NCBI GenBank assembly: GCA_964250925.1
Contig: CAXUHU010000003.1
Coordinates: 25,327-89,326, forward strand
DNA from: an uncultured Acetobacteraceae bacterium
GTDB taxonomy: Bacteria; Pseudomonadota; Alphaproteobacteria; Acetobacterales; Acetobacteraceae
Length of the DNA stretch: 64,000 bases
Direction of reading: 5' to 3'
Part shown: positions 12,615 to 18,948 of the stretch, in pieces
Numbering within the stretch: the first letter of the stretch is position 1
Layout of the letters: each line of letters begins with the position of its first letter
The notes under the pieces: model-generated
Databases searched by the model: none
What the model was told of the DNA's origin: nothing
What the model saw: the letters and a program-made list of their open reading frames with translations, nothing else
Translations under genes and position numbers: made by a program

Positions 12615-13037
12615 GTGACGCCCTCCATCCCAGCGATGGCGGCCGCCACCGGCAGCGTGCTGCTCGTGCTGCAAGTGGGGCTCGGTCTGGCGGTCAGCGG
12701 CGCGCGTGGCCAGGCCGGCGTGTTTATCGGCGCCGGCGGCAACGCCGGGCTGGAGCGTGCGACGCGGCGCCACGCCAACCTGGCCGAGAACGCCGGGCTG
12801 GTGCTGGCCGGCCTCACCCTGCTCGAACTGTCCGGGCGCTGGCCGACGCTTCTGCTGGTACTGTGCCCCACCTTCATCGCACTGCGCCTGTGCCACGCCG
12901 CCGGCCTGTCGCGTGCCGACACCAACAACCCGCTCCGCCTGGTCGGTGGCGCCGGCACCTACCTGCTCGGCCTGGTGCTGGGCGGCGCGCTCGCCTGGCT
13001 GGGCGGCACTGCGCTGCTGACCGCTACCCATGGCTGA
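12615..13037 (+). CDS. MAPEG family membrane protein
   Basis: RRHANLAEN motif, RLCHAAGL, four hydrophobic helices; start uncertain (GTG 12615 or ATG 12636). Confidence 0.8.
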
Positions 13038-13433
13038 ACCGGCGGCCATACTCGACCAGGACTCGGCAATTCTGGTGACCGGGGCTACGGGCAAGACCGG
13101 CGGCCACACGGTGAAGCTGCTGTTGGCGCGCGGCCGCACAGTGCGCGCCTTCGTGCACAGGCGGGGCCACCGCTCGGAGCTGGCGGCCGCACAGGGGGCG
13201 GAGGTCGTCGAAGGCGACCTACCGTGCGGCCGTCGCGCAGGCCGGCCAGGTTCGAGGCGACCCGCGACACCACCTTCGCGCGGACAGCCGTCGAGATCGC
13301 GCTGCTGGCGGTAAAAGGGGCGGCGGTGCCGGGCTATCGGACGCCTGCCACCGCTTACGGCGCCGACTTCATCCTGGGGTTCGACGGCGTGCGGCGGACC
13401 GACGTGGACGGGCGATCGCAGGTGGACGTGTAG
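13030..13433 (+). pseudogene. Chimeric remnant: NmrA-like N-terminus joined to a saccharopine-dehydrogenase-like C-terminus
   Basis: [11 protein letters not shown]...GAEVVEGDL stops abruptly; another frame ends with GYRTPATAYGADFILGFDGVRRTDV. Confidence 0.6.
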
Positions 13434-13445
13434 GGCAGCCTGCCT

Positions 13446-13778
13446 TCACGCGGCGCCTTTGCCACCCGCCTGATCGGCATGCCAAGCGGCATACGGCGAG
13501 TTCGCCACCATGCGCCTGTTGTAATCCGGTGCGCCGTCGTCCCACCACGCCGCGCCGCGCTCTCCAAGCGCGCGCTTTGCGGCATCCACACGGGCGCGTG
13601 CCGCCGCGAGTGCCTCTCCGTCGCCCCTCGCTGCGCGCACGGCCCGCCGCGCTGCCATCAGCTCGCGCACGAGCGCGTCATGGCGTTCCGGCGGGAGCGT
13701 CGGGTTGGCGAGGCGCCACAGCCTCCCGCGCACGACGAAGTAGCGGCCGTCCGGGGTGCGCAGGTGGACCTCAGGCAA
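13446..13778 (-). CDS. Conserved hypothetical protein (TPDGRYFVVRGRLWR family)
   Basis: RTPDGRYFVVRGRLWR...GERGAAWWDDGAPDYNRRM; TTG start inferred. Confidence 0.7.
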   Translation of the reverse strand: MPEVHLRTPDGRYFVVRGRLWRLANPTLPPERHDALVRELMAARRAVRAARGDGEALAAARARVDAAKRALGERGAAWWDDGAPDYNRRMVANSPYAAWHADQAGGKGAA

Positions 13779-13977
13779 GAAGCAACGCGCCGGCGGGCGG
13801 ATCCTTCTTCTCGCCACGCGCCACGATCCGCAATGCGCCGTCCGGCAACGGCCTCTGCAGCCGGCGTGCATCTGTCCAGGGCGTCGCCAACCACGTGTCG
13901 GCTTCTTCACTCGTGGTGAGGATGACGGGCATCGCCTTGGGATGGACGCTGGCGACCTCGCGATTCGGCTCGGTCGT
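13771..13977 (-). pseudogene. C-terminal fragment of an SOS response-associated peptidase (SRAP)
   Basis: TTEPNREVASVHPKAMPVILTT...LQRPLP, preceded directly by an in-frame TAG; N-terminus missing. Confidence 0.7.
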
Positions 13978-14278
13978 CTACGGAGCCGGTAAAGGTAGGA
14001 GTAGGTCGTCGGACACGATCGCTGCAGGGCGGTGATGCCCGCATCACAAATTGTCCCAGATACGCGCGATAACCCTCGATAGGCCTTTCGTGACACCGAA
14101 GATCATCCGCTCGTTCCGCGACGGCCTGGTCATGGCATCCCCAGTAATGACCCCCGACGGCGACGTATCACGATCTCGATCCGCGGAACAACGGACGATC
14201 GACGGTGCTCGTGGACGATGGATCAGTACACCGATATCGGGTATGTTCGGCCGCGACAACCCACTAACGCCAGTCTTC

Positions 14279-14396
14279 ACTAGCCGACTTCATTGTTCAA
14301 CCGTCTATACGGCTCAGTCCTTGAAGTAGCCAACTTTTGATTATGAAAATAAGCAACTCCGCCGACCTGACTAACAGACTTTATTAGTCCGGAACA
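14279..14396 (-). repeat. glmS-distal transposon end with widely spaced TnsB-type sites
   Basis: Minus strand reads TGTTCCGGACTAATAAAGTC, CAAAAGTTGGCTA (14327-14339) and ACAATGAAGTCGGCTAGT (14279-14296; 16/18 identical to 4357-4374). Confidence 0.85.
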
Positions 14397-14531
14397 ACTT
14401 CGATGCGCCGGCACTCTCCACAATGGGAATCGGCCGGCGGGCATCGCACCCGTTCGGACGGCCGTGCAATGGCTCCGTGCTTGCCAGCCTTGCCGATTGC
14501 TGAAATATGACCTGGGCTGGCCTGGGGCGAC

Positions 14532-14927
14532 GTGGTTCGAGCACTCAAGACCCGGCTAGGCGGCGGCTTGCTCAAGTTCCTGCTGGTCGTGCTGGCGCTC
14601 GCCTGTCAGATCGGCGCGGTAACGTCAGCGGTCTCGGTCTATCCGCATAACGACGACGCCTCCTTGGCGGCCGTCTCCCTTCTGTGTCAGGGCGCTGCTC
14701 ACCCAGACGGTCGTGACGCGCCATCGGGGCACCGGCATGTGCCTCGCCAGGCCGTCATCGGTGTTGCCCAGGCAGACGCCTGCTCGGCGGCCGTTCTGCG
14801 CCCTGGCGCTGCTTTGCCGGAGCCTGCTCGGGCAAACATTGGCGAAGCCAGGCACCCCGAGGCGCGCGCCCCCCCTGTCCGCGCGGTCGCGTCGTTCTAC
14901 CCGCGAGGCCCGCCCAGCCCTGTCTGA
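14532..14927 (+). CDS. DUF2946-like leader protein with RAPP and RGPP motifs (candidate arrest peptide)
   Basis: Hydrophobic N-terminus, Cys/His-containing middle, EARAPP (14865-14876) and PRGPP (14904-14915) near the C-terminus; first gene of the Cu operon. Confidence 0.65.
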   Translation: MVRALKTRLGGGLLKFLLVVLALACQIGAVTSAVSVYPHNDDASLAAVSLLCQGAAHPDGRDAPSGHRHVPRQAVIGVAQADACSAAVLRPGAALPEPARANIGEARHPEARAPPVRAVASFYPRGPPSPV

Positions 14928-14995
14928 CAGCTGATCCTTTGCCCGCGGCAGATCGCACGCTGCCGCCCATGATCACGTTTGCCGGACAGGTTTCC

Positions 14996-15961
14996 ATGCA
15001 TCGAACATCACCAACCGTGCTTGCATGTGCAGGCGCCTACCTTTTCAGCGCATCCCCCACCCTGGCCCATGCCGTCTGCGGCGCACGGGTCTATCCTGTG
15101 ACCTTGACGATGGATGACCCGGGCGTCGCCGACGAGGCCACGATCCCGCAGATCGTCTATACCCGCAGCGCCGCCGCCGGCGGCCCGGGTCCCGGGCACG
15201 ACACCAGCGTGCAGTTCGAATACGACAAGCGGCTGACTGACGCGATCGGCTTCGCATTCAACGATGGCTACGCCGTCGATCAGACCAACAACGCCAAGAC
15301 GCAGGCCGGCTGGGACGACCTGACCGTCACCGCCAAATGGGCCAGGTGCGTCAACCCCGACGCCAGCTTCCAGCTCGCCGTCGGAGTCATCCGCGAGTTC
15401 GGCCGCACAGGCACCTCGCATGTCGGGTCCGACGAGTACGGCGACACGGCACCCACAATCTACCTAGGGAAGGGGCTCGACGATGCTGTGGTGCCGATTT
15501 TACAACCGCTTCAGTTCTCGGGCGAGCTCAGCTACGCGGTCACCGACAAGGCGATCAAAACCTACACGACTCTGGACCCCATCTCGGGTCTCTCATCGGC
15601 CCGCACGAACAATGGCGGTGCCAACCGGTGGATCGGCTCGTTCTCTGTTCAGTACTCGATCCCATACCTGCAAAATCAGGTGGAGGATTTCGGCCTGCCC
15701 GAACCGGTTTCCCACCTGATCCCCATTGCGGAGTTCAACTGGACGTCGCCCACGGTTTCGGGCGGCAACGGACCGACCACGTGGACGATGGCGCCTGGAT
15801 TTATCTACCTGCGCAGCTGGTATCAGGTCGGCGTAGAGGCGCTCGTTCCGCTCGATAAAGGCGCGGGCACGAATGTCGGCGTCATCGTTCAGCTGCACGT
15901 CTTCCTCGACGACCTGTATCCGCACGGCGTCGGCGCTCCGATCCTAGACCTTCTGAAATGA
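14996..15961 (+). CDS. Exported, probable outer-membrane beta-barrel protein (candidate metal uptake)
   Basis: Signal peptide ending TLA-HAVCG, alternating amphipathic strands with aromatics; directly upstream of copC. Confidence 0.6.
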   Translation: MHRTSPTVLACAGAYLFSASPTLAHAVCGARVYPVTLTMDDPGVADEATIPQIVYTRSAAAGGPGPGHDTSVQFEYDKRLTDAIGFAFNDGYAVDQTNNAKTQAGWDDLTVTAKWARCVNPDASFQLAVGVIREFGRTGTSHVGSDEYGDTAPTIYLGKGLDDAVVPILQPLQFSGELSYAVTDKAIKTYTTLDPISGLSSARTNNGGANRWIGSFSVQYSIPYLQNQVEDFGLPEPVSHLIPIAEFNWTSPTVSGGNGPTTWTMAPGFIYLRSWYQVGVEALVPLDKGAGTNVGVIVQLHVFLDDLYPHGVGAPILDLLK

Positions 15962-16017
15962 CGACGTCATCCGGCCTGCCGCTCCGGCACTGTGTCATTT
16001 CCTCAGGGGAGGAACCC

Positions 16018-16374
16018 ATGCTTCGCACCATCGCCGCCGCTGCCGCCTGCCTGCTTCTGCCGATGCCCGTCTGCGCGCACGCTTTTCTGGACGGCGCCAC
16101 CCCGCGTGTGGGCAGCAACAACCCGACCGCCCCGACCGAAGTGGTGCTGCATTTCACGCAGAGTGTCGAACCCGATTTCTCCACGATCAAGGTGACGAAC
16201 GCCGCGGGCGCAATGGTGACGGACGGCGTCCCCCACACAAAGCCGGGCGACGCCACACGCTTGGCGGTGCGGCTTACGACGATCGGCGCGGGCCAGTACA
16301 CCGTCGTCTGGCATGTGACGTCGGTGGACACGCACAAGACGCAGGGCAAGTTCCACTTCAGCGTGACGCCTTAG
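16018..16374 (+). CDS. copC: Copper resistance protein CopC
   Basis: Signal peptide then HAFL (His1), W-H-VTSVDTHKTQG Cu(II) site. Confidence 0.9.
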   Translation: MLRTIAAAAACLLLPMPVCAHAFLDGATPRVGSNNPTAPTEVVLHFTQSVEPDFSTIKVTNAAGAMVTDGVPHTKPGDATRLAVRLTTIGAGQYTVVWHVTSVDTHKTQGKFHFSVTP

Positions 16375-16376
16375 CC

Positions 16377-18311
16377 ATGCTGCCGTTCGATCTTCAGGGC
16401 GGGTTGCCGCTCTCGGCCGCGCGCGCCCTGATGGTCGGCGCGGTGCTCTCCACCTTTGGAGCATTGGTCTTCCGGGTCTTGGTCGCGCCCAGGGCCTGTG
16501 CGCCCATGACGCCGGAGGCGGTGCGCGTCGGCAAGCAGCGCCTGCTCGTCGTCTCGCAGGTCAGCGCCCTGGCCGGGCTACTCGCAGCCATTCTGTGGCT
16601 ATACCTGCAAGCGGCAGACATGGCCGATGCGGAAGGCGCCGCCCGGGTCCTGGCAGCCCTTATCCCTGTCCTGACCCGCACCCTATTCGGACACGTTCTC
16701 GGCGCGCAGTTCGCCGCACTTCTCGCCGCCTCGGCGCTGATCGGCGTGGTCGATGTGGCTTGGCGCCAAAGAGCTGCCTTGGGCATGACGACCCTCGCCG
16801 TCGCCTTGCAGGCGGGCCACAGCCACGCCTACGCGATGTATGGCGGGGCAAGCGTGTTGCTGGGCTGCGACGTCGTGCACCTTCTGGCTGCAGGGGCCTG
16901 GCTGGGCGGCCTGGTGCCGCTGCTGCTCTGGGTGCGGTGTGCGCCGCCCAAGACGGGTGCCAGTGCCGCGCGCCGGTTCTCGCCCCTCGGTCAAGGGTGC
17001 ATCGCCGCACTGGTCCTGTCGGCGACCGTCCAAGGCTGGATACTCGTCGGAACCGTTCCCGGACTGGTCGGCACCGCCTATGGCTGGATGGTGCTCGTCA
17101 AGATCGGCCTGTTCGCGGTGCTGCTGGGCTTTGCAGCCGCCAACCGCTACCGCTTTGCACCAGCGTTGCTGCACGACAGGCCCGTTACGGCGAAGACGGT
17201 GCTGGTGCGCAGCATCGCTCTTCAGACAGGGTTCGCAATCGCCATCGTCGCTGCCGCCAGCGTGCTGAGCGCGCTGCCGCCCGCCATGCACGAACAGCCG
17301 GCCTGGCCTTTCCCCGAACGCTTCAGCTTGGCCGCCGTAAACGAGGATCCCGACTTCCTGCGCGAAGTGGTGCAGGCGGGCGTGCTGCTCGCTGGCGCCG
17401 GGCTGGTTTTGACATTGTGCGTGAGCGCGCGCCGCTTCCGGCTGACGGCTTGCGCCCTGGCGGCTGTTTCCGTTTGGTTCGAGCTGCCGCATCTCGACCT
17501 GCTGCTCGTGACCGCCTACCCCACCAGCTTCTATCGTTCGCCCACGGGCTTCGCAGCCGCCGCCATCGTGAGCGGGCAATCAGTCTATGCAGCGCATTGT
17601 GTCGTCTGCCACGGCAGGGAGGGGCGTGGCGACGGAGTTGCGGCCAAGACCTTGCCGGTGCCGGCAGCCGACCTGACAGCGCCGCACCTCTGGATGCATA
17701 GCGATGGAGAGCTGTTCTGGTGGCTTGCCCACGGCATACTGACACCGGGGGGCGTGCAGGCGATGCCCGGCTTGGCCACGGTGCTGGATGACGACCAGCG
17801 TTGGGCGGCCATCGACTTCATCCGGGCACGCAACGCCGGCGGCACCCTGCGTGCGACAGGGGGGTGGACGCCGCCGCTCTTGGCGCCCGGGTTCGACCTG
17901 AGTTGCGGCACGACCTACATCGCGCTGTCCGGGCTGCGGGGGCGGTTCGTGCTGTTGCGATTCAGTCAGGCGCCACTCAGCCAAGTGGGGTTCGGCCACG
18001 AGCCGGATCGGCCCCGCATCGGCACCGCGGTCAGCATCCTGGCCATGCCTGCCGGGCAGGCTGCACCGCCCGACGACTGCGTAAGCACCGACGAGACCGT
18101 GGCGCCTGCCTACGCCATCGTGTCGGGCGTGGACGTGGCAAGCTTGCCCGGGACGGAGTTCCTGATCGATGAGCGGGGCTGGCTGCGTGCTGTGCACCGG
18201 GCGGGGACAGCACCCCTGTGGAGCGCTGCGGCGTTGCAGGCGGAAATCCGCTTGTTGCGCGCGCATCCCGTGGCTGACGCTGCCGTAGCGCCGATGAAGA
18301 TGCCGATGTGA
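16377..18311 (+). CDS. CopD-family membrane protein fused to cytochrome c and a degenerate thioredoxin-like domain
   Basis: GHSHA, HLLAAGAWLGGL, LVKIGLF..N RY CopD motifs; CVVCHG heme site; C-terminal FLIDERGWLR. Confidence 0.85.
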   Translation: MLPFDLQGGLPLSAARALMVGAVLSTFGALVFRVLVAPRACAPMTPEAVRVGKQRLLVVSQVSALAGLLAAILWLYLQAADMADAEGAARVLAALIPVLTRTLFGHVLGAQFAALLAASALIGVVDVAWRQRAALGMTTLAVALQAGHSHAYAMYGGASVLLGCDVVHLLAAGAWLGGLVPLLLWVRCAPPKTGASAARRFSPLGQGCIAALVLSATVQGWILVGTVPGLVGTAYGWMVLVKIGLFAVLLGFAAANRYRFAPALLHDRPVTAKTVLVRSIALQTGFAIAIVAAASVLSALPPAMHEQPAWPFPERFSLAAVNEDPDFLREVVQAGVLLAGAGLVLTLCVSARRFRLTACALAAVSVWFELPHLDLLLVTAYPTSFYRSPTGFAAAAIVSGQSVYAAHCVVCHGREGRGDGVAAKTLPVPAADLTAPHLWMHSDGELFWWLAHGILTPGGVQAMPGLATVLDDDQRWAAIDFIRARNAGGTLRATGGWTPPLLAPGFDLSCGTTYIALSGLRGRFVLLRFSQAPLSQVGFGHEPDRPRIGTAVSILAMPAGQAAPPDDCVSTDETVAPAYAIVSGVDVASLPGTEFLIDERGWLRAVHRAGTAPLWSAAALQAEIRLLRAHPVADAAVAPMKMPM

Positions 18312-18324
18312 TGGGTGGTTGGCG

Positions 18325-18948
18325 ATGAAGACGAGACGGGCGGTCCGCCGGCGGGAGCGCGATCGCAAAGCCTTCACACGCGCCTGGTTCGGCGTAGCGG
18401 CCATTCTGCTCCTAGCCGGCACGTTCTGGCTGACGGTTCCGGGCCAACGGAAGCAGGGTGGCATCGGCGGACCGTTCACGCTGATGGCCGATGACGGCTA
18501 CCTCCGAACGGAACGAAGCTTCCCCGGGAAGTACCTTGCCGTCTATTTCGGCTACACACACTGCCAGGATGTTTGTCCCGCGACGCTCAACACGCTGGCG
18601 GCCGCACTGGCGCGATTGGGCGGCGCGGCCGAACGCGTGCAACCACTGTTCATCACCGTCGATCCGTCGCGCGACTCGCCTGCGGTGCTGCGCCGTTTCG
18701 TCGCGGGCTTTGCACCCAACCTGATGGGACTGACCGGAACGCCGGACCAGTTGGCCAAGGTCGAGCGAGGGTATCGCGTGGTGAGTGTTCCGCATGTCGG
18801 AGCTGCGCCGGCCAGCTACGTGGTGGACCACAGTTCGGTAATCTACCTGATCGACCCTGACGGCGCCTTTGTCGCACCGATACCGGCCGATGCCTCCGAA
18901 ATGGTGATGGCGCAAGCGATCGCGCGCTACGTCAGGACGCCGTCTTGA
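18325..18948 (+). CDS. SCO1/SenC copper chaperone
   Basis: FGYTHCQDVCP (CxxxC), ITVDP, VDHSS. Confidence 0.92.
   Translation: MKTRRAVRRRERDRKAFTRAWFGVAAILLLAGTFWLTVPGQRKQGGIGGPFTLMADDGYLRTERSFPGKYLAVYFGYTHCQDVCPATLNTLAAALARLGGAAERVQPLFITVDPSRDSPAVLRRFVAGFAPNLMGLTGTPDQLAKVERGYRVVSVPHVGAAPASYVVDHSSVIYLIDPDGAFVAPIPADASEMVMAQAIARYVRTPS

What the first reader, a model, noticed from the sequence alone, without database searches (positions are those of the whole stretch)
14532..14995. Candidate metal-sensing ribosome-arrest leader with two arrest motifs (RAPP and RGPP) heading a copper operon
Seen: a 131-aa ORF with a hydrophobic N-terminus, scattered Cys/His (no CxxC), RAPP at 14865-14876 and RGPP at 14904-14915, ending 68 nt before an exported beta-barrel gene. 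Known: Bordetella CruR (DUF2946) is a Cu-responsive uORF using a RAPP motif, and RAPP/RGPP motifs stall ribosomes in ApdA/ApdP-type arrest peptides. Inference: post-transcriptional copper control of an uptake or delivery operon. The tandem motifs, the missing CxxC and a non-TonB downstream gene would be a new variant.
Basis: partly seen in the sequence, partly recalled or inferred. Interest (0 to 1): 0.7.

Follow-up and report, generated by a model that had tools for sequence, protein, structure and literature searches.

The report
CxxC-less CruR-type ribosome-arrest leader
A small gene in front of a copper-handling operon is a diverged relative of the known copper-sensing, ribosome-stalling leader peptides CruR and CutF; it lacks their cysteine pair and has two stalling motifs, and its last codons hide the next gene's ribosome-binding site.

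Summary
A 131-codon ORF (14532-14927) has an N-terminal helix, no CxxC, RAPP at 14865-14876 and RGPP at 14904-14915. It ends 68 nt before an exported 12-strand outer-membrane barrel gene, followed by CopC, CopD-cytochrome c and SCO1.

Pfam DUF2946 does not detect it. A profile comparison with canonical DUF2946 leaders at the same position in sister species gives 95.8% probability. Across 70 leaders of this operon type in uncultured Acetobacteraceae:
- 62 end in a terminal [R/T]GPP or RAPP plus three residues.
- 42 have a second R[A/G]PP exactly 13 residues upstream.
- About 20 have no CxxC; on the barrel-gene tree this state needs at least 4 changes.

The terminal RGPP corresponds to the RAPP of CruR; the upstream RAPP is additional.

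The leader's last codons and stop (14919-14926) pair with the barrel gene's Shine-Dalgarno region (14983-14990). This pairing co-varies across species and lies inside the footprint of a ribosome arrested at RGPP. I read it as a stall-opened translational switch, as in CutF, with CruR-type motifs.

Copper sensing and stalling itself are untested. This is a new variant of a known, recently catalogued kind, of moderate interest.

The parts
14532..14927 (+). Leader ORF, 131 codons plus TGA; a diverged CxxC-less DUF2946/CruR/CutF-type upstream ORF
   Evidence: Homologous ORFs precede every barrel-CopC-CopD operon examined. hhalign to canonical DUF2946 leaders gives 95.8% probability.
14547..14633 (+). 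Residues 6-34: N-terminal export signal or membrane-anchor helix
   Evidence: This is the only confidently modelled part of the protein (pLDDT about 90). The rest has pTM 0.30 and no compact fold. The pattern of basic residues then a hydrophobic core is read from the sequence.
14685..14687 (+). Cys52 codon, the only Cys invariant in the family (the semi-conserved Cys of DUF2946)
   Evidence: It is invariant in alignments A1 and A6. It lies 73 residues before the terminal motif, the modal distance in both CxxC and CxxC-less relatives.
14730..14738 (+). His67-Arg-His69, the conserved His cluster; candidate metal ligands together with Cys52
   Evidence: An H-x-H or HHH cluster sits at this position in CxxC-less relatives and just before the CxxC in canonical ones. 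A ligand role is inferred.
14865..14876 (+). Upstream arrest-type motif RAPP (residues 112-115)
   Evidence: R[AG]PP lies exactly 13 residues before the terminal motif in 42 of 70 leaders of this operon type, and in 97 of 112 tandem cases in the wider search. It is absent from some canonical relatives, so it is an addition.
14904..14915 (+). Terminal arrest-type motif RGPP (residues 125-128); the positional equivalent of CruR's RAPP
   Evidence: It lies three residues before the stop, as in CruR, and 62 of 70 leaders have a three-residue tail. In canonical relatives CPxC lies 45-47 residues upstream, matching the CruR spacing. RGPP and RAPP arrest ribosomes with the first Pro codon in the P site and the second in the A site (PMC12992588).
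14919..14926 (+). Anti-SD arm CCUGUCUG: the last two sense codons plus UG of the stop
   Evidence: It pairs with 14983-14990 and lies within about +10 to +17 nt of the P-site codon of a ribosome arrested at RGPP.
14919..14990 (+). Three-tier intergenic stem-loop, with an inner G+C hairpin 14945-14951/14960-14966
   Evidence: MFE -30.1 kcal/mol, z -1.95. An outer helix pairing the leader's last codons with the SD region appears in about 20 of 24 relatives folded singly. On alignment A4 the outer helix is 81% paired against 29-46% for slid controls, and 0 of 500 shuffles reach the observed covariation.
14983..14990 (+). SD arm CGGACAGG: the Shine-Dalgarno region of the barrel gene, 5 nt before ATG 14996
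   Evidence: The CAGG(A) core is nearly invariant in relatives. Cognate arm pairs bind better than non-cognate pairs (-12.98 against -9.98 kcal/mol, permutation p<5e-5, n=37).
14996..15961 (+). First controlled gene: an exported 12-strand outer-membrane beta-barrel with no Pfam family
   Evidence: The mature N-terminus H-A-V-C-G and a DDPGVADE motif are conserved.
15958..18948 (+). Rest of the operon: CopC (15958-16374), CopD-cytochrome c fusion (16377-18311), SCO1/SenC (18319-18948)
   Evidence: Pfam and NCBIfam hits. The genes overlap or lie within 2-7 nt of each other. The same order is found in relatives.

Best explanation
The ORF is a translated regulatory leader of the CruR/CutF (DUF2946) kind, not a structural protein.

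Proposed mechanism:
1. A ribosome translating the leader arrests at the terminal RGPP, with Pro127 in the P site and Pro128 in the A site.
2. The arrested ribosome covers the next 12-16 nt. These are the leader's last two sense codons and its stop, which otherwise pair with the Shine-Dalgarno region of the outer-membrane barrel gene.
3. While the ribosome is arrested, the stem-loop is open and the barrel gene can be initiated. CopC overlaps the barrel gene, and CopD-cytochrome c and SCO1 follow within 2-7 nt.
4. When arrest is released, the leader terminates and the stem-loop re-forms.

The released nascent chain is an exported or membrane-anchored, mostly unfolded peptide. Its one invariant Cys (C52) and His cluster (H67/H69) lie about 60-75 residues from the arrest site. 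They are the likely metal-sensing part and replace the lost CxxC.

The operon looks like copper acquisition and delivery (OM channel, CopC, CopD, SCO1). I therefore expect CruR logic: arrest and expression when copper is scarce, release when copper binds.

Status of each step:
- Shown here: homology, synteny, motif conservation, and the co-varying RNA pairing and its geometry.
- Taken from the literature: RAPP and RGPP arrest ribosomes.
- Inferred: arrest in this peptide, copper as the signal, and the direction of the response.

My confidence is about 0.85 that this is an arrest-type leader, about 0.6 that SD unmasking is the output, and about 0.5 that copper is the signal.
For: Homology and position:
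- hhalign of the CxxC-less clade against canonical DUF2946 leaders of sister species gives 95.8% probability, E 6.8e-9.
- Those canonical leaders all hit PF11162. They sit before the same barrel-CopC-CopD operon.

Motifs:
- The terminal [R/T]GPP or RAPP carries a three-residue tail in 62 of 70 leaders.
- Synonymous codon variation shows selection on the peptide.
- RGPP and RAPP are strong, EF-P-resistant arrest motifs. CruR arrests in vitro with the two Pro codons in the P and A sites (PMC12992588).

RNA switch:
- The stem-loop spans 14919-14990.
- The same leader-end/SD pairing appears in about 20 of 24 relatives folded singly.
- Cognate arms pair better than non-cognate arms, -12.98 against -9.98 kcal/mol, p<5e-5.
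- The stop-proximal window is among the best 10% of SD partners within the leader in 27 of 37 loci.
- Named-structure count: 81% of cells paired against 29-46% when slid, with UA-to-CG compensatory changes at one pair in 9 sequences.
- Tail residues vary (SPV, GLA, TLT and others) while complementarity to the cognate SD is kept.

Peptide:
- Only the N-terminal helix is confidently modelled, as reported for CruR.

Precedent:
- CutF controls cutO by stall-dependent melting of an SD-shielding stem-loop.
- CruR controls a copper-uptake gene through RAPP.
Against:
- The window's own stem-loop is only modestly better than shuffles (z -1.95, 9 of 200). The longer 171-nt context is not better than shuffles (z 0.31).
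- The hallmark CxxC, which in CruR carries the copper response, is absent. Mutating CruR's semi-conserved Cys, the equivalent of C52, did not affect regulation there. Copper sensing by C52 and His is therefore unproven.
- The direction of the response is a guess, because CruR and CutF respond in opposite ways.
- Any ribosome reaching the stop codon also opens the helix briefly, so arrest may only modulate a basal coupling.
- The upstream RAPP has no role in this model. A ribosome arrested there would end about 30 nt short of the anti-SD arm.
Confidence: 0.58

Rival explanations
1. The arrest leader is the same, but its main output is CruR-like. A stalled ribosome blocks Rho loading on the C-rich 3' end of the leader. 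Release then causes Rho-dependent termination before the barrel gene. The stem-loop would be secondary or act as a pause site.
For: This is the demonstrated mechanism for CruR, the closest characterised relative carrying a RAPP-type motif. The 3' part of the leader is C-rich and relatively G-poor (14844-14921: C 0.49, G 0.31). Ribosomes at RAPP and RGPP together would cover that tract.
Against: The spacer is short (68 nt against 162 nt in CruR) and almost wholly base-paired. The SD itself is one arm of a co-varying helix, which Rho control does not require. Canonical sister leaders have spacers of only 34-37 nt. The two mechanisms could also act together.
Confidence: 0.15
2. The arrest and SD-unmasking leader is real, but the CxxC-less version no longer senses copper. 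Arrest would be constitutive, acting as a built-in translational activator. Alternatively it would be released by the pulling force of export (SecM/ApdP-like) or by another ligand.
For: The CxxC state changes at least 4 times on the barrel tree, while the arrest motifs and the hairpin persist. The CxxC carries the copper response in CruR. The region that aligns with the CxxC is poorly conserved in the window's clade. RAPP/RGPP peptides are typically released by export force.
Against: Cys52 stays invariant at the same distance from the arrest site as in CxxC-bearing relatives (mode 73 residues in both). The His cluster is also kept. CutF-like families with His-only or mixed Cys/His sites are known. 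The operon is still entirely copper-related.
Confidence: 0.2
3. The ORF encodes a functional small exported copper-binding protein or chaperone of the pathway. The Pro-rich C-terminus would have no regulatory role.
For: It has an export signal and conserved Cys and His residues, and it is co-transcribed with copper proteins. At about 130 aa it is long for a leader.
Against: Conservation is concentrated in the arrest motifs, their exact spacing and the distance to the stop, while the body diverges quickly (25-48% identity within one genus). No compact fold is predicted (pTM 0.30). RGPP and RAPP are among the most avoided tetrapeptides in proteomes except at the ends of small regulatory ORFs. 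CruR and CutF proteins were not detectable in cells.
Confidence: 0.05
4. The ORF is a chance open frame in G+C-rich DNA, and only the RNA structure is functional.
For: GC3 of the ORF (0.73) is slightly below that of its neighbours (0.76-0.83). Open frames are common at 67% G+C.
Against: The frame stays open and the amino-acid motifs are conserved with synonymous changes in 70 loci. There are 1,091 profile hits at E<=0.001 among called proteins. The tandem motif is unique in the genome.
Confidence: 0.02

Closest known systems
CruR (Bp2923) of Bordetella pertussis, DUF2946/PF11162, upstream of bfrG (Roy et al. 2022, PMC9426467)
   Same: Both are first genes of a copper-related operon and about 130-145 aa long with an N-terminal export signal. 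Both have a semi-conserved Cys and an R-A/G-P-P motif exactly three residues before the stop, and both are poorly structured. Homology is supported by profile comparison with canonical family members at the same locus in sister species.
   Different: The window's ORF has no CxxC and no Pfam hit. It has RGPP rather than RAPP at the terminal site, plus a second RAPP 13 residues upstream. Its spacer is 68 nt and fully structured, with the SD in a helix, against 162 nt with a Rho-dependent terminator. The first controlled gene is a small 12-strand barrel rather than a TonB-dependent transporter.
CutF of Rhodobacter capsulatus, cutFOG operon (PMC9973294; bioRxiv 10.1101/2025.02.05.636593)
   Same: Both are alphaproteobacterial DUF2946-type exported leaders. 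In both, a short spacer forms a stem-loop that shields the SD of the next gene, and the proposed output is stall-dependent melting of that stem-loop.
   Different: CutF uses CxxxC and a PPP motif that is EF-P sensitive. It controls a detoxifying multicopper oxidase and stalls when copper is present. Here the motifs are RAPP and RGPP (EF-P resistant in other systems), there is no Cys pair, and the operon looks like acquisition and delivery, so the sign is probably opposite.
RAPP/RGPP arrest peptides (ApdA, ApdP, seven Streptomyces lividans leaders; PMC7897499, PMC10951233, PMC12992588)
   Same: Both have the same core tetrapeptide close to the C-terminus of a small secretory-type protein encoded upstream of the regulated gene. 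Copper-related downstream genes are among the catalogued classes.
   Different: The described peptides carry one motif. This leader and most of its clade carry two at a fixed 13-residue spacing. There is no sequence relation to ApdA or ApdP outside the motif.

Membership tests
DUF2946 / CruR family (Pfam PF11162) | Match to the Pfam model above its gathering score (23.7 bits) | tested here: not met
   There is no PF11162 hit at E<=1 for the window ORF. None of 12 clade members is significant; the best E-value is 1.2. The window's genome has no PF11162 match in six frames.
DUF2946 / CruR family (Pfam PF11162) | Detectable homology to bona fide members | tested here: met
   hhalign of A1 against A2 gives 95.8% probability and E 6.8e-9 over 109 columns. 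All 6 A2 members hit PF11162. The two sets occupy the same position before the same operon.
DUF2946 / CruR family (Pfam PF11162) | Conserved CXXC motif, the copper-perceiving element in CruR | tested here: not met
   There is no C-x-x-C anywhere in the ORF. No Cys is conserved at the aligned position in the clade.
DUF2946 / CruR family (Pfam PF11162) | [quoted passage not shown] | tested here: met
   RGPP is residues 125-128 and is followed by SPV-stop. The three-residue tail occurs in 62 of 70 relatives.
DUF2946 / CruR family (Pfam PF11162) | About 45 residues between the CXXC and the arrest motif | tested here: inconclusive
   This cannot be applied because there is no CXXC. In canonical relatives CPxC lies 45-47 residues before the terminal motif. 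The semi-conserved Cys keeps the family distance of 73 residues in the window.
DUF2946 / CruR family (Pfam PF11162) | N-terminal export signal, and first position in a copper-related operon | tested here: met
   Residues 6-34 model as a helix preceded by basic residues. CopC, CopD and SCO1 lie downstream.
DUF2946 / CruR family (Pfam PF11162) | Copper-dependent, motif-dependent control of the downstream gene | not testable with these tools
   This needs reporter fusions or toeprinting. No RNA data could be reached.
CutF-type SD-shielding leaders | A stem-loop between the leader and the next gene that sequesters the next gene's SD and lies within reach of the stalled ribosome | tested here: met
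   The helix 14919-14926/14983-14990 is conserved and co-varying in relatives. This is in silico evidence only.
CutF-type SD-shielding leaders | CxxxC copper site and a C-terminal PPP motif | tested here: not met
   Neither is present in the ORF.
RAPP/RGPP ribosome arrest peptides | An R-A/G-P-P core near the C-terminus of a small secretory protein encoded upstream of a co-directional gene | tested here: met
   The defining criteria are as described in PMC12992588.
RAPP/RGPP ribosome arrest peptides | Demonstrated elongation arrest with Pro codons in the P and A sites | not testable with these tools
   This requires in vitro translation and toeprinting.

The most novel reading that the evidence does not exclude
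The two arrest motifs, held exactly 13 codons (39 nt) apart, form one device that parks two ribosomes in a row without contact. The leading ribosome at RGPP keeps the SD open. The follower stops at RAPP about three codons short of a collision. This would protect the long-lived stall from collision-triggered mRNA cleavage and rescue, and would cover the C-rich tract against Rho. Alternatively, the two sites make a two-step check of the nascent sensor. In lineages where the terminal Arg has become Thr (TGPP), the upstream R[AG]PP would carry the arrest.
Probability: 0.15. Interest if true: 0.7.

Novelty: new variant of a known kind. Interest (0 to 1): 0.42.

Why it matters
Metal-sensing arrest leaders (CruR 2022, CutF 2023-25, the RAPP/RGPP catalogue 2025) are a young field with two worked examples that behave in opposite ways.

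This clade offers natural experiments inside one operon type. Orthologous operons are headed by leaders with or without the CxxC, and with one or two arrest motifs, while all keep the same SD-shielding geometry. That makes three questions directly testable:
- What actually senses copper.
- Whether arrest alone suffices for control.
- What a second arrest site at a fixed 13-codon distance does.

It also shows that the Pfam model misses a sizeable branch of the family. The profile search found 1,091 cluster representatives at E<=0.001, and the few looked up are named 'hypothetical protein' or carry no name. The small unannotated outer-membrane barrel is marked as the probable copper entry point of a CopCD/SCO pathway.

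The practical importance is limited. The organism is an uncultured Acetobacteraceae, and this scan has already met about fifty leaders of the same general kind.

Tried and rejected
- Pfam and NCBIfam scans of the ORF gave nothing relevant.
- An Rfam scan of 13000-16000 at E<=1 gave no hit, so no known riboswitch or leader RNA is present.
- The word-indexed protein search with the single ORF gave no hit.
- The promoter and terminator scan of 14000-15200 found no sigma-70-like promoter. It found one terminator-like site inside the barrel gene, which is no more than shuffles give.
- RNAalifold on the MAFFT alignment of the spacers predicted no structure. The anti-SD sits in two registers one base apart. 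I used single-sequence folds, cognate against non-cognate duplex energies, and a named-structure count instead.
- I tested whether the rare Arg codons at the terminal motif pair with the spacer and AUG of the next gene. This is not supported (p=0.10).
- A search for a promoter region upstream of the leader shared with close relatives found no nucleotide similarity.
- I considered an intrinsic-terminator attenuator and rejected it, because no U-tract follows either hairpin.
- I considered a lipoprotein reading for LALAC and rejected it. The Cys is not conserved (Gly in most relatives) and the box is non-canonical.

Full report
OBSERVATION

The ORF is exactly as described: GTG 14532 to TGA 14927, 131 aa.
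- RAPP is residues 112-115 (14865-14876).
- RGPP is residues 125-128 (14904-14915) and is followed by Ser-Pro-Val-stop.
- Cys is at positions 25, 52 and 84; His at 39, 57, 67, 69 and 108. There is no CxxC.
- The next gene starts at ATG 14996, 68 nt after the stop.

The genes behind it are tightly packed. An exported 321-aa protein with no Pfam family overlaps CopC (15958-16374). Then come a CopD-cytochrome c fusion (16377-18311) and SCO1/SenC (18319-18948). AlphaFold2 with a 28-sequence alignment models the 321-aa protein as a 12-strand barrel (mean pLDDT 83.9, pTM 0.77). Its best fold matches are FapF, NanC and the COG4313 channel. 'Exported beta-barrel' is therefore confirmed.

CHANCE

I scanned the window's own genome in six frames. 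It has 3.57 Mb and 32,143 open frames of at least 60 aa. Seven frames end in R[AG]PPxxx-stop, about what composition predicts, and the other six look like Arg-rich junk frames. Only this ORF has R[AG]PP-x9-[RT][AG]PP. Conservation in relatives settles the point (see below).

IDENTITY OF THE ORF

There is no DUF2946 (PF11162) hit at E<=1, and the whole genome has no PF11162 match.

Same-genus genomes do hold homologous ORFs, at 29-48% identity. Every locus with the barrel-CopC-CopD-cytochrome c genes has a small ORF in front of it ending in ...[R/T]GPPxxx-stop.
- In 12 species these leaders lack a CxxC, like the window's.
- In 6 species the ORF at the same position is a canonical DUF2946 protein with C-x-x-C-P-x-C. 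All 6 hit PF11162, best E 1.6e-8.

A profile-profile comparison of the two sets gives 95.8% probability and E 6.8e-9. It aligns the signal helix, the conserved 'I/F-C' Cys and the whole C-terminus. The ORF is therefore a diverged branch of the CruR/CutF family that the Pfam model no longer detects.

WIDER SURVEY

A barrel-protein alignment retrieved 80 loci. Nearly all are uncultured Acetobacteraceae or Rhodospirillales MAGs from lichen, moss and peat. They gave 70 non-redundant leaders.
- Terminal motif: RGPP 43, TGPP 18, RAPP 7.
- Tail: three residues in 62 of 70.
- Second motif: R[AG]PP exactly 13 residues upstream in 42, and at 14 residues in 8 more R[AG]PP cases.
- Cysteines: CxxC or CxxCxxC in about 41, a single 'CP[LF]' Cys in 7, none in about 20.

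In canonical members the CPxC lies 45-47 residues before the terminal motif. [quoted passage not shown] The terminal RGPP is therefore the counterpart of CruR's RAPP, and the upstream RAPP is an additional element. Tandem motifs also occur in canonical CxxC members, so they are a clade feature and not peculiar to the CxxC-less form.

A profile search of 1.84 billion cluster representatives found 1,091 relatives at E<=0.001 and 425 at E<=1e-10. Among the best 150:
- 110 have the tandem arrangement, and the spacing is 13 in 97 of 112 cases.
- 19 have no Cys at all in the CxxC region, and 38 have one.

The five representatives looked up are named 'hypothetical protein' or carry no name.

On a barrel-protein tree the window lies in a well-supported clade (SH-aLRT 97) of 16 CxxC-less leaders and one CxxC leader. 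The CxxC-less state needs at least 4 changes on the tree.

EVIDENCE THAT THE PEPTIDE, NOT ONLY THE RNA, IS SELECTED

The motifs are kept through synonymous changes. The terminal Arg uses all six Arg codons, Gly uses four codons and each Pro uses four.

The invariant Cys52 sits 73 residues before the terminal motif. This is the modal distance in both CxxC and CxxC-less relatives. A His cluster (H67/H69 here) is also retained.

AlphaFold2 with 52 sequences gives a confident N-terminal helix (residues 6-34) and no compact fold (pTM 0.30). This matches what was reported for CruR.

THE RNA ELEMENT

The spacer folds into a three-tier stem-loop, 14919-14990.
- The outer helix pairs CCUGUCUG (14919-14926, the last two sense codons plus UG of the stop) with CGGACAGG (14983-14990, the SD region 5 nt before the ATG).
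- An inner G+C hairpin pairs 14945-14951 with 14960-14966.
- For the window alone the fold is only modestly better than shuffles (-30.1 kcal/mol, z -1.95, 9 of 200).

Comparative support is stronger.
- In the 18 genus loci, and then in 37 loci, the leader's last 15 nt pair with the cognate SD region better than with non-cognate ones. The values are -13.35 against -9.88 and -12.98 against -9.98 kcal/mol, with no permutation as low in 10,000 and 20,000 trials.
- The stop-proximal window is the single best SD partner within the leader in 14 of 37 loci and in the top 10% in 27 of 37.
- A helix pairing the leader's last codons with the SD region appears in the minimum-energy fold of about 20 of 24 spacers folded one by one.
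- On a MAFFT alignment, imperfect because the anti-SD sits in two registers one base apart, the named structure is 76.9% paired overall. The outer helix is 81.4% paired, against 29-46% for slid partners. There are UA-to-CG double changes in 9 sequences at one pair. No shuffle out of 500 reaches the observed pairing or covariation score.
- The tail residues differ between species (SPV, QPV, GLA, TLT, RLV and others) while complementarity to each species' own SD is kept. The tail is therefore constrained mainly at the RNA level.

GEOMETRY

RAPP-type arrest places the first Pro codon in the P site and the second in the A site, as toeprinted for CruR in PMC12992588.

With Pro127 (14910-14912) in the P site, established ribosome dimensions apply. 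The helicase site lies about +11 nt and the leading edge about +15 to +16 nt from the first P-site base. This puts 14919-14925 inside the ribosome, which covers nearly the whole anti-SD arm. The conserved three-codon tail is what achieves this.

A ribosome arrested at the upstream RAPP (Pro114 in the P site at 14871-14873) would end near 14886, about 30 nt short of the anti-SD arm.

MECHANISM PROPOSED

I propose a stall-opened translational switch, as in CutF, driven by CruR-type arrest motifs. Arrest at RGPP exposes the SD of the barrel gene. Release lets the hairpin re-form.

The operon consists of an OM channel, periplasmic CopC, the inner-membrane importer CopD with a cytochrome c domain, and the CuA chaperone SCO1. 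This reads as copper acquisition and delivery. I therefore expect CruR logic: on when copper is scarce, with copper binding to the nascent chain releasing arrest.

The sensor would be Cys52 plus the His cluster. This step is inferred and is the weakest one, for three reasons:
- The CxxC that carries the response in CruR is missing.
- Mutating the equivalent of Cys52 in CruR had no effect.
- CruR and CutF respond to copper in opposite directions.

A Rho-dependent component as in CruR cannot be excluded. The leader's 3' end is C-rich.

COMPARISON WITH WHAT IS KNOWN

Several points are already in the literature:
- Roy et al. listed CopC, Sco, PCuAC and YcnI genes behind DUF2946 leaders.
- Ozturk et al. 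catalogued 5,334 CutF-like proteins in 29 clusters with Cys, His or mixed sites.
- Fujiwara et al. showed that RAPP/RGPP small secretory ORFs are enriched upstream of copper-related genes.

Earlier notes of this scan record about fifty leaders of the same general kind, several with leader-end/start-region pairing. None mentions tandem motifs. These are unchecked notes. I used them only to temper the interest score.

Four things are new here, judged against the papers I read:
- The fixed 13-residue tandem of two arrest motifs.
- The repeated loss of the CxxC within one orthologous operon family, with Cys52, the His cluster, the arrest motifs and the hairpin all retained.
- The combination of CruR-type motifs with a CutF-type SD hairpin whose 5' arm is the leader's own tail.
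- A 12-strand barrel as the first controlled gene.

VERDICT

This is a new variant of a known kind, of moderate interest (0.42). Stalling, the copper response and the role of the upstream RAPP all need bench work.

Noticed in passing
window 14904-14906, and the terminal RGPP of 40 related leaders (L040-L119): The Arg of the terminal RGPP is encoded by rare codons in 28 of 40 leaders (AGA 10, AGG 9, CGA 9; the window uses CGA). These three make up 11.8% of Arg codons in long ORFs of this genome. The upstream RAPP Arg uses only CGC, CGT or CGG (24 of 24). The choice creates an SD-like GAGG or AGGG at the R-G codons. Pairing with the next gene's spacer and AUG was tested and not supported (p=0.10). 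The pattern remains unexplained.
   Followed up: partly
L053 (= G024:C5, L034), compared with L045, L047 and L055: One canonical CxxCxxC leader with a short 35-nt spacer is nested, on the barrel-protein tree, inside the otherwise CxxC-less clade. This suggests that leaders can be exchanged between operons by recombination.
   Followed up: no
L024/L025/L026 (= L055, L047, L045), spacer between leader and barrel gene; also upstream of leaders in L022, L029 and L033: Three species have a spacer of about 250 nt instead of about 70 nt. The extra length comes from an inserted A/T-rich palindromic repeat, which reads 'FFKKAGLAF / KKEPKNF / FFEKKNQKTF' in translation. It recurs near several of these loci and looks like a small dispersed REP- or MITE-like element of these Acetobacteraceae. 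The leader-end/SD pairing is still predicted across the insertion.
   Followed up: no
window 14996-15961: The barrel protein has an invariant A-H-A-(V/I)-(C/A)-G at the predicted signal-peptide cleavage region, followed by an invariant DDPGVADE block. If cleavage leaves His as residue 1, this could form an amino-terminal histidine copper site like that of CopC. Its fold resembles plugged 12-strand channels (FapF, COG4313).
   Followed up: partly
That leaves only about 130 nt for the leader's own promoter. No sigma-70-like site was found by the simple scan, and there is no nucleotide similarity to the upstream regions of close relatives. Several relatives instead have a divergently oriented second CopC-like gene upstream of the leader.
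   Followed up: partly
L057:3001-3951: The barrel homologue of this MAG contains one in-frame stop codon. This is either a pseudogene or an assembly error.
   Followed up: no
L023, L028-L031 (about 5.4-6.0 kb into each locus): In several sister species a second CopC paralogue (37-42% identical to the window's CopC) follows SCO1 at the end of the operon. It is absent from the window.
   Followed up: no
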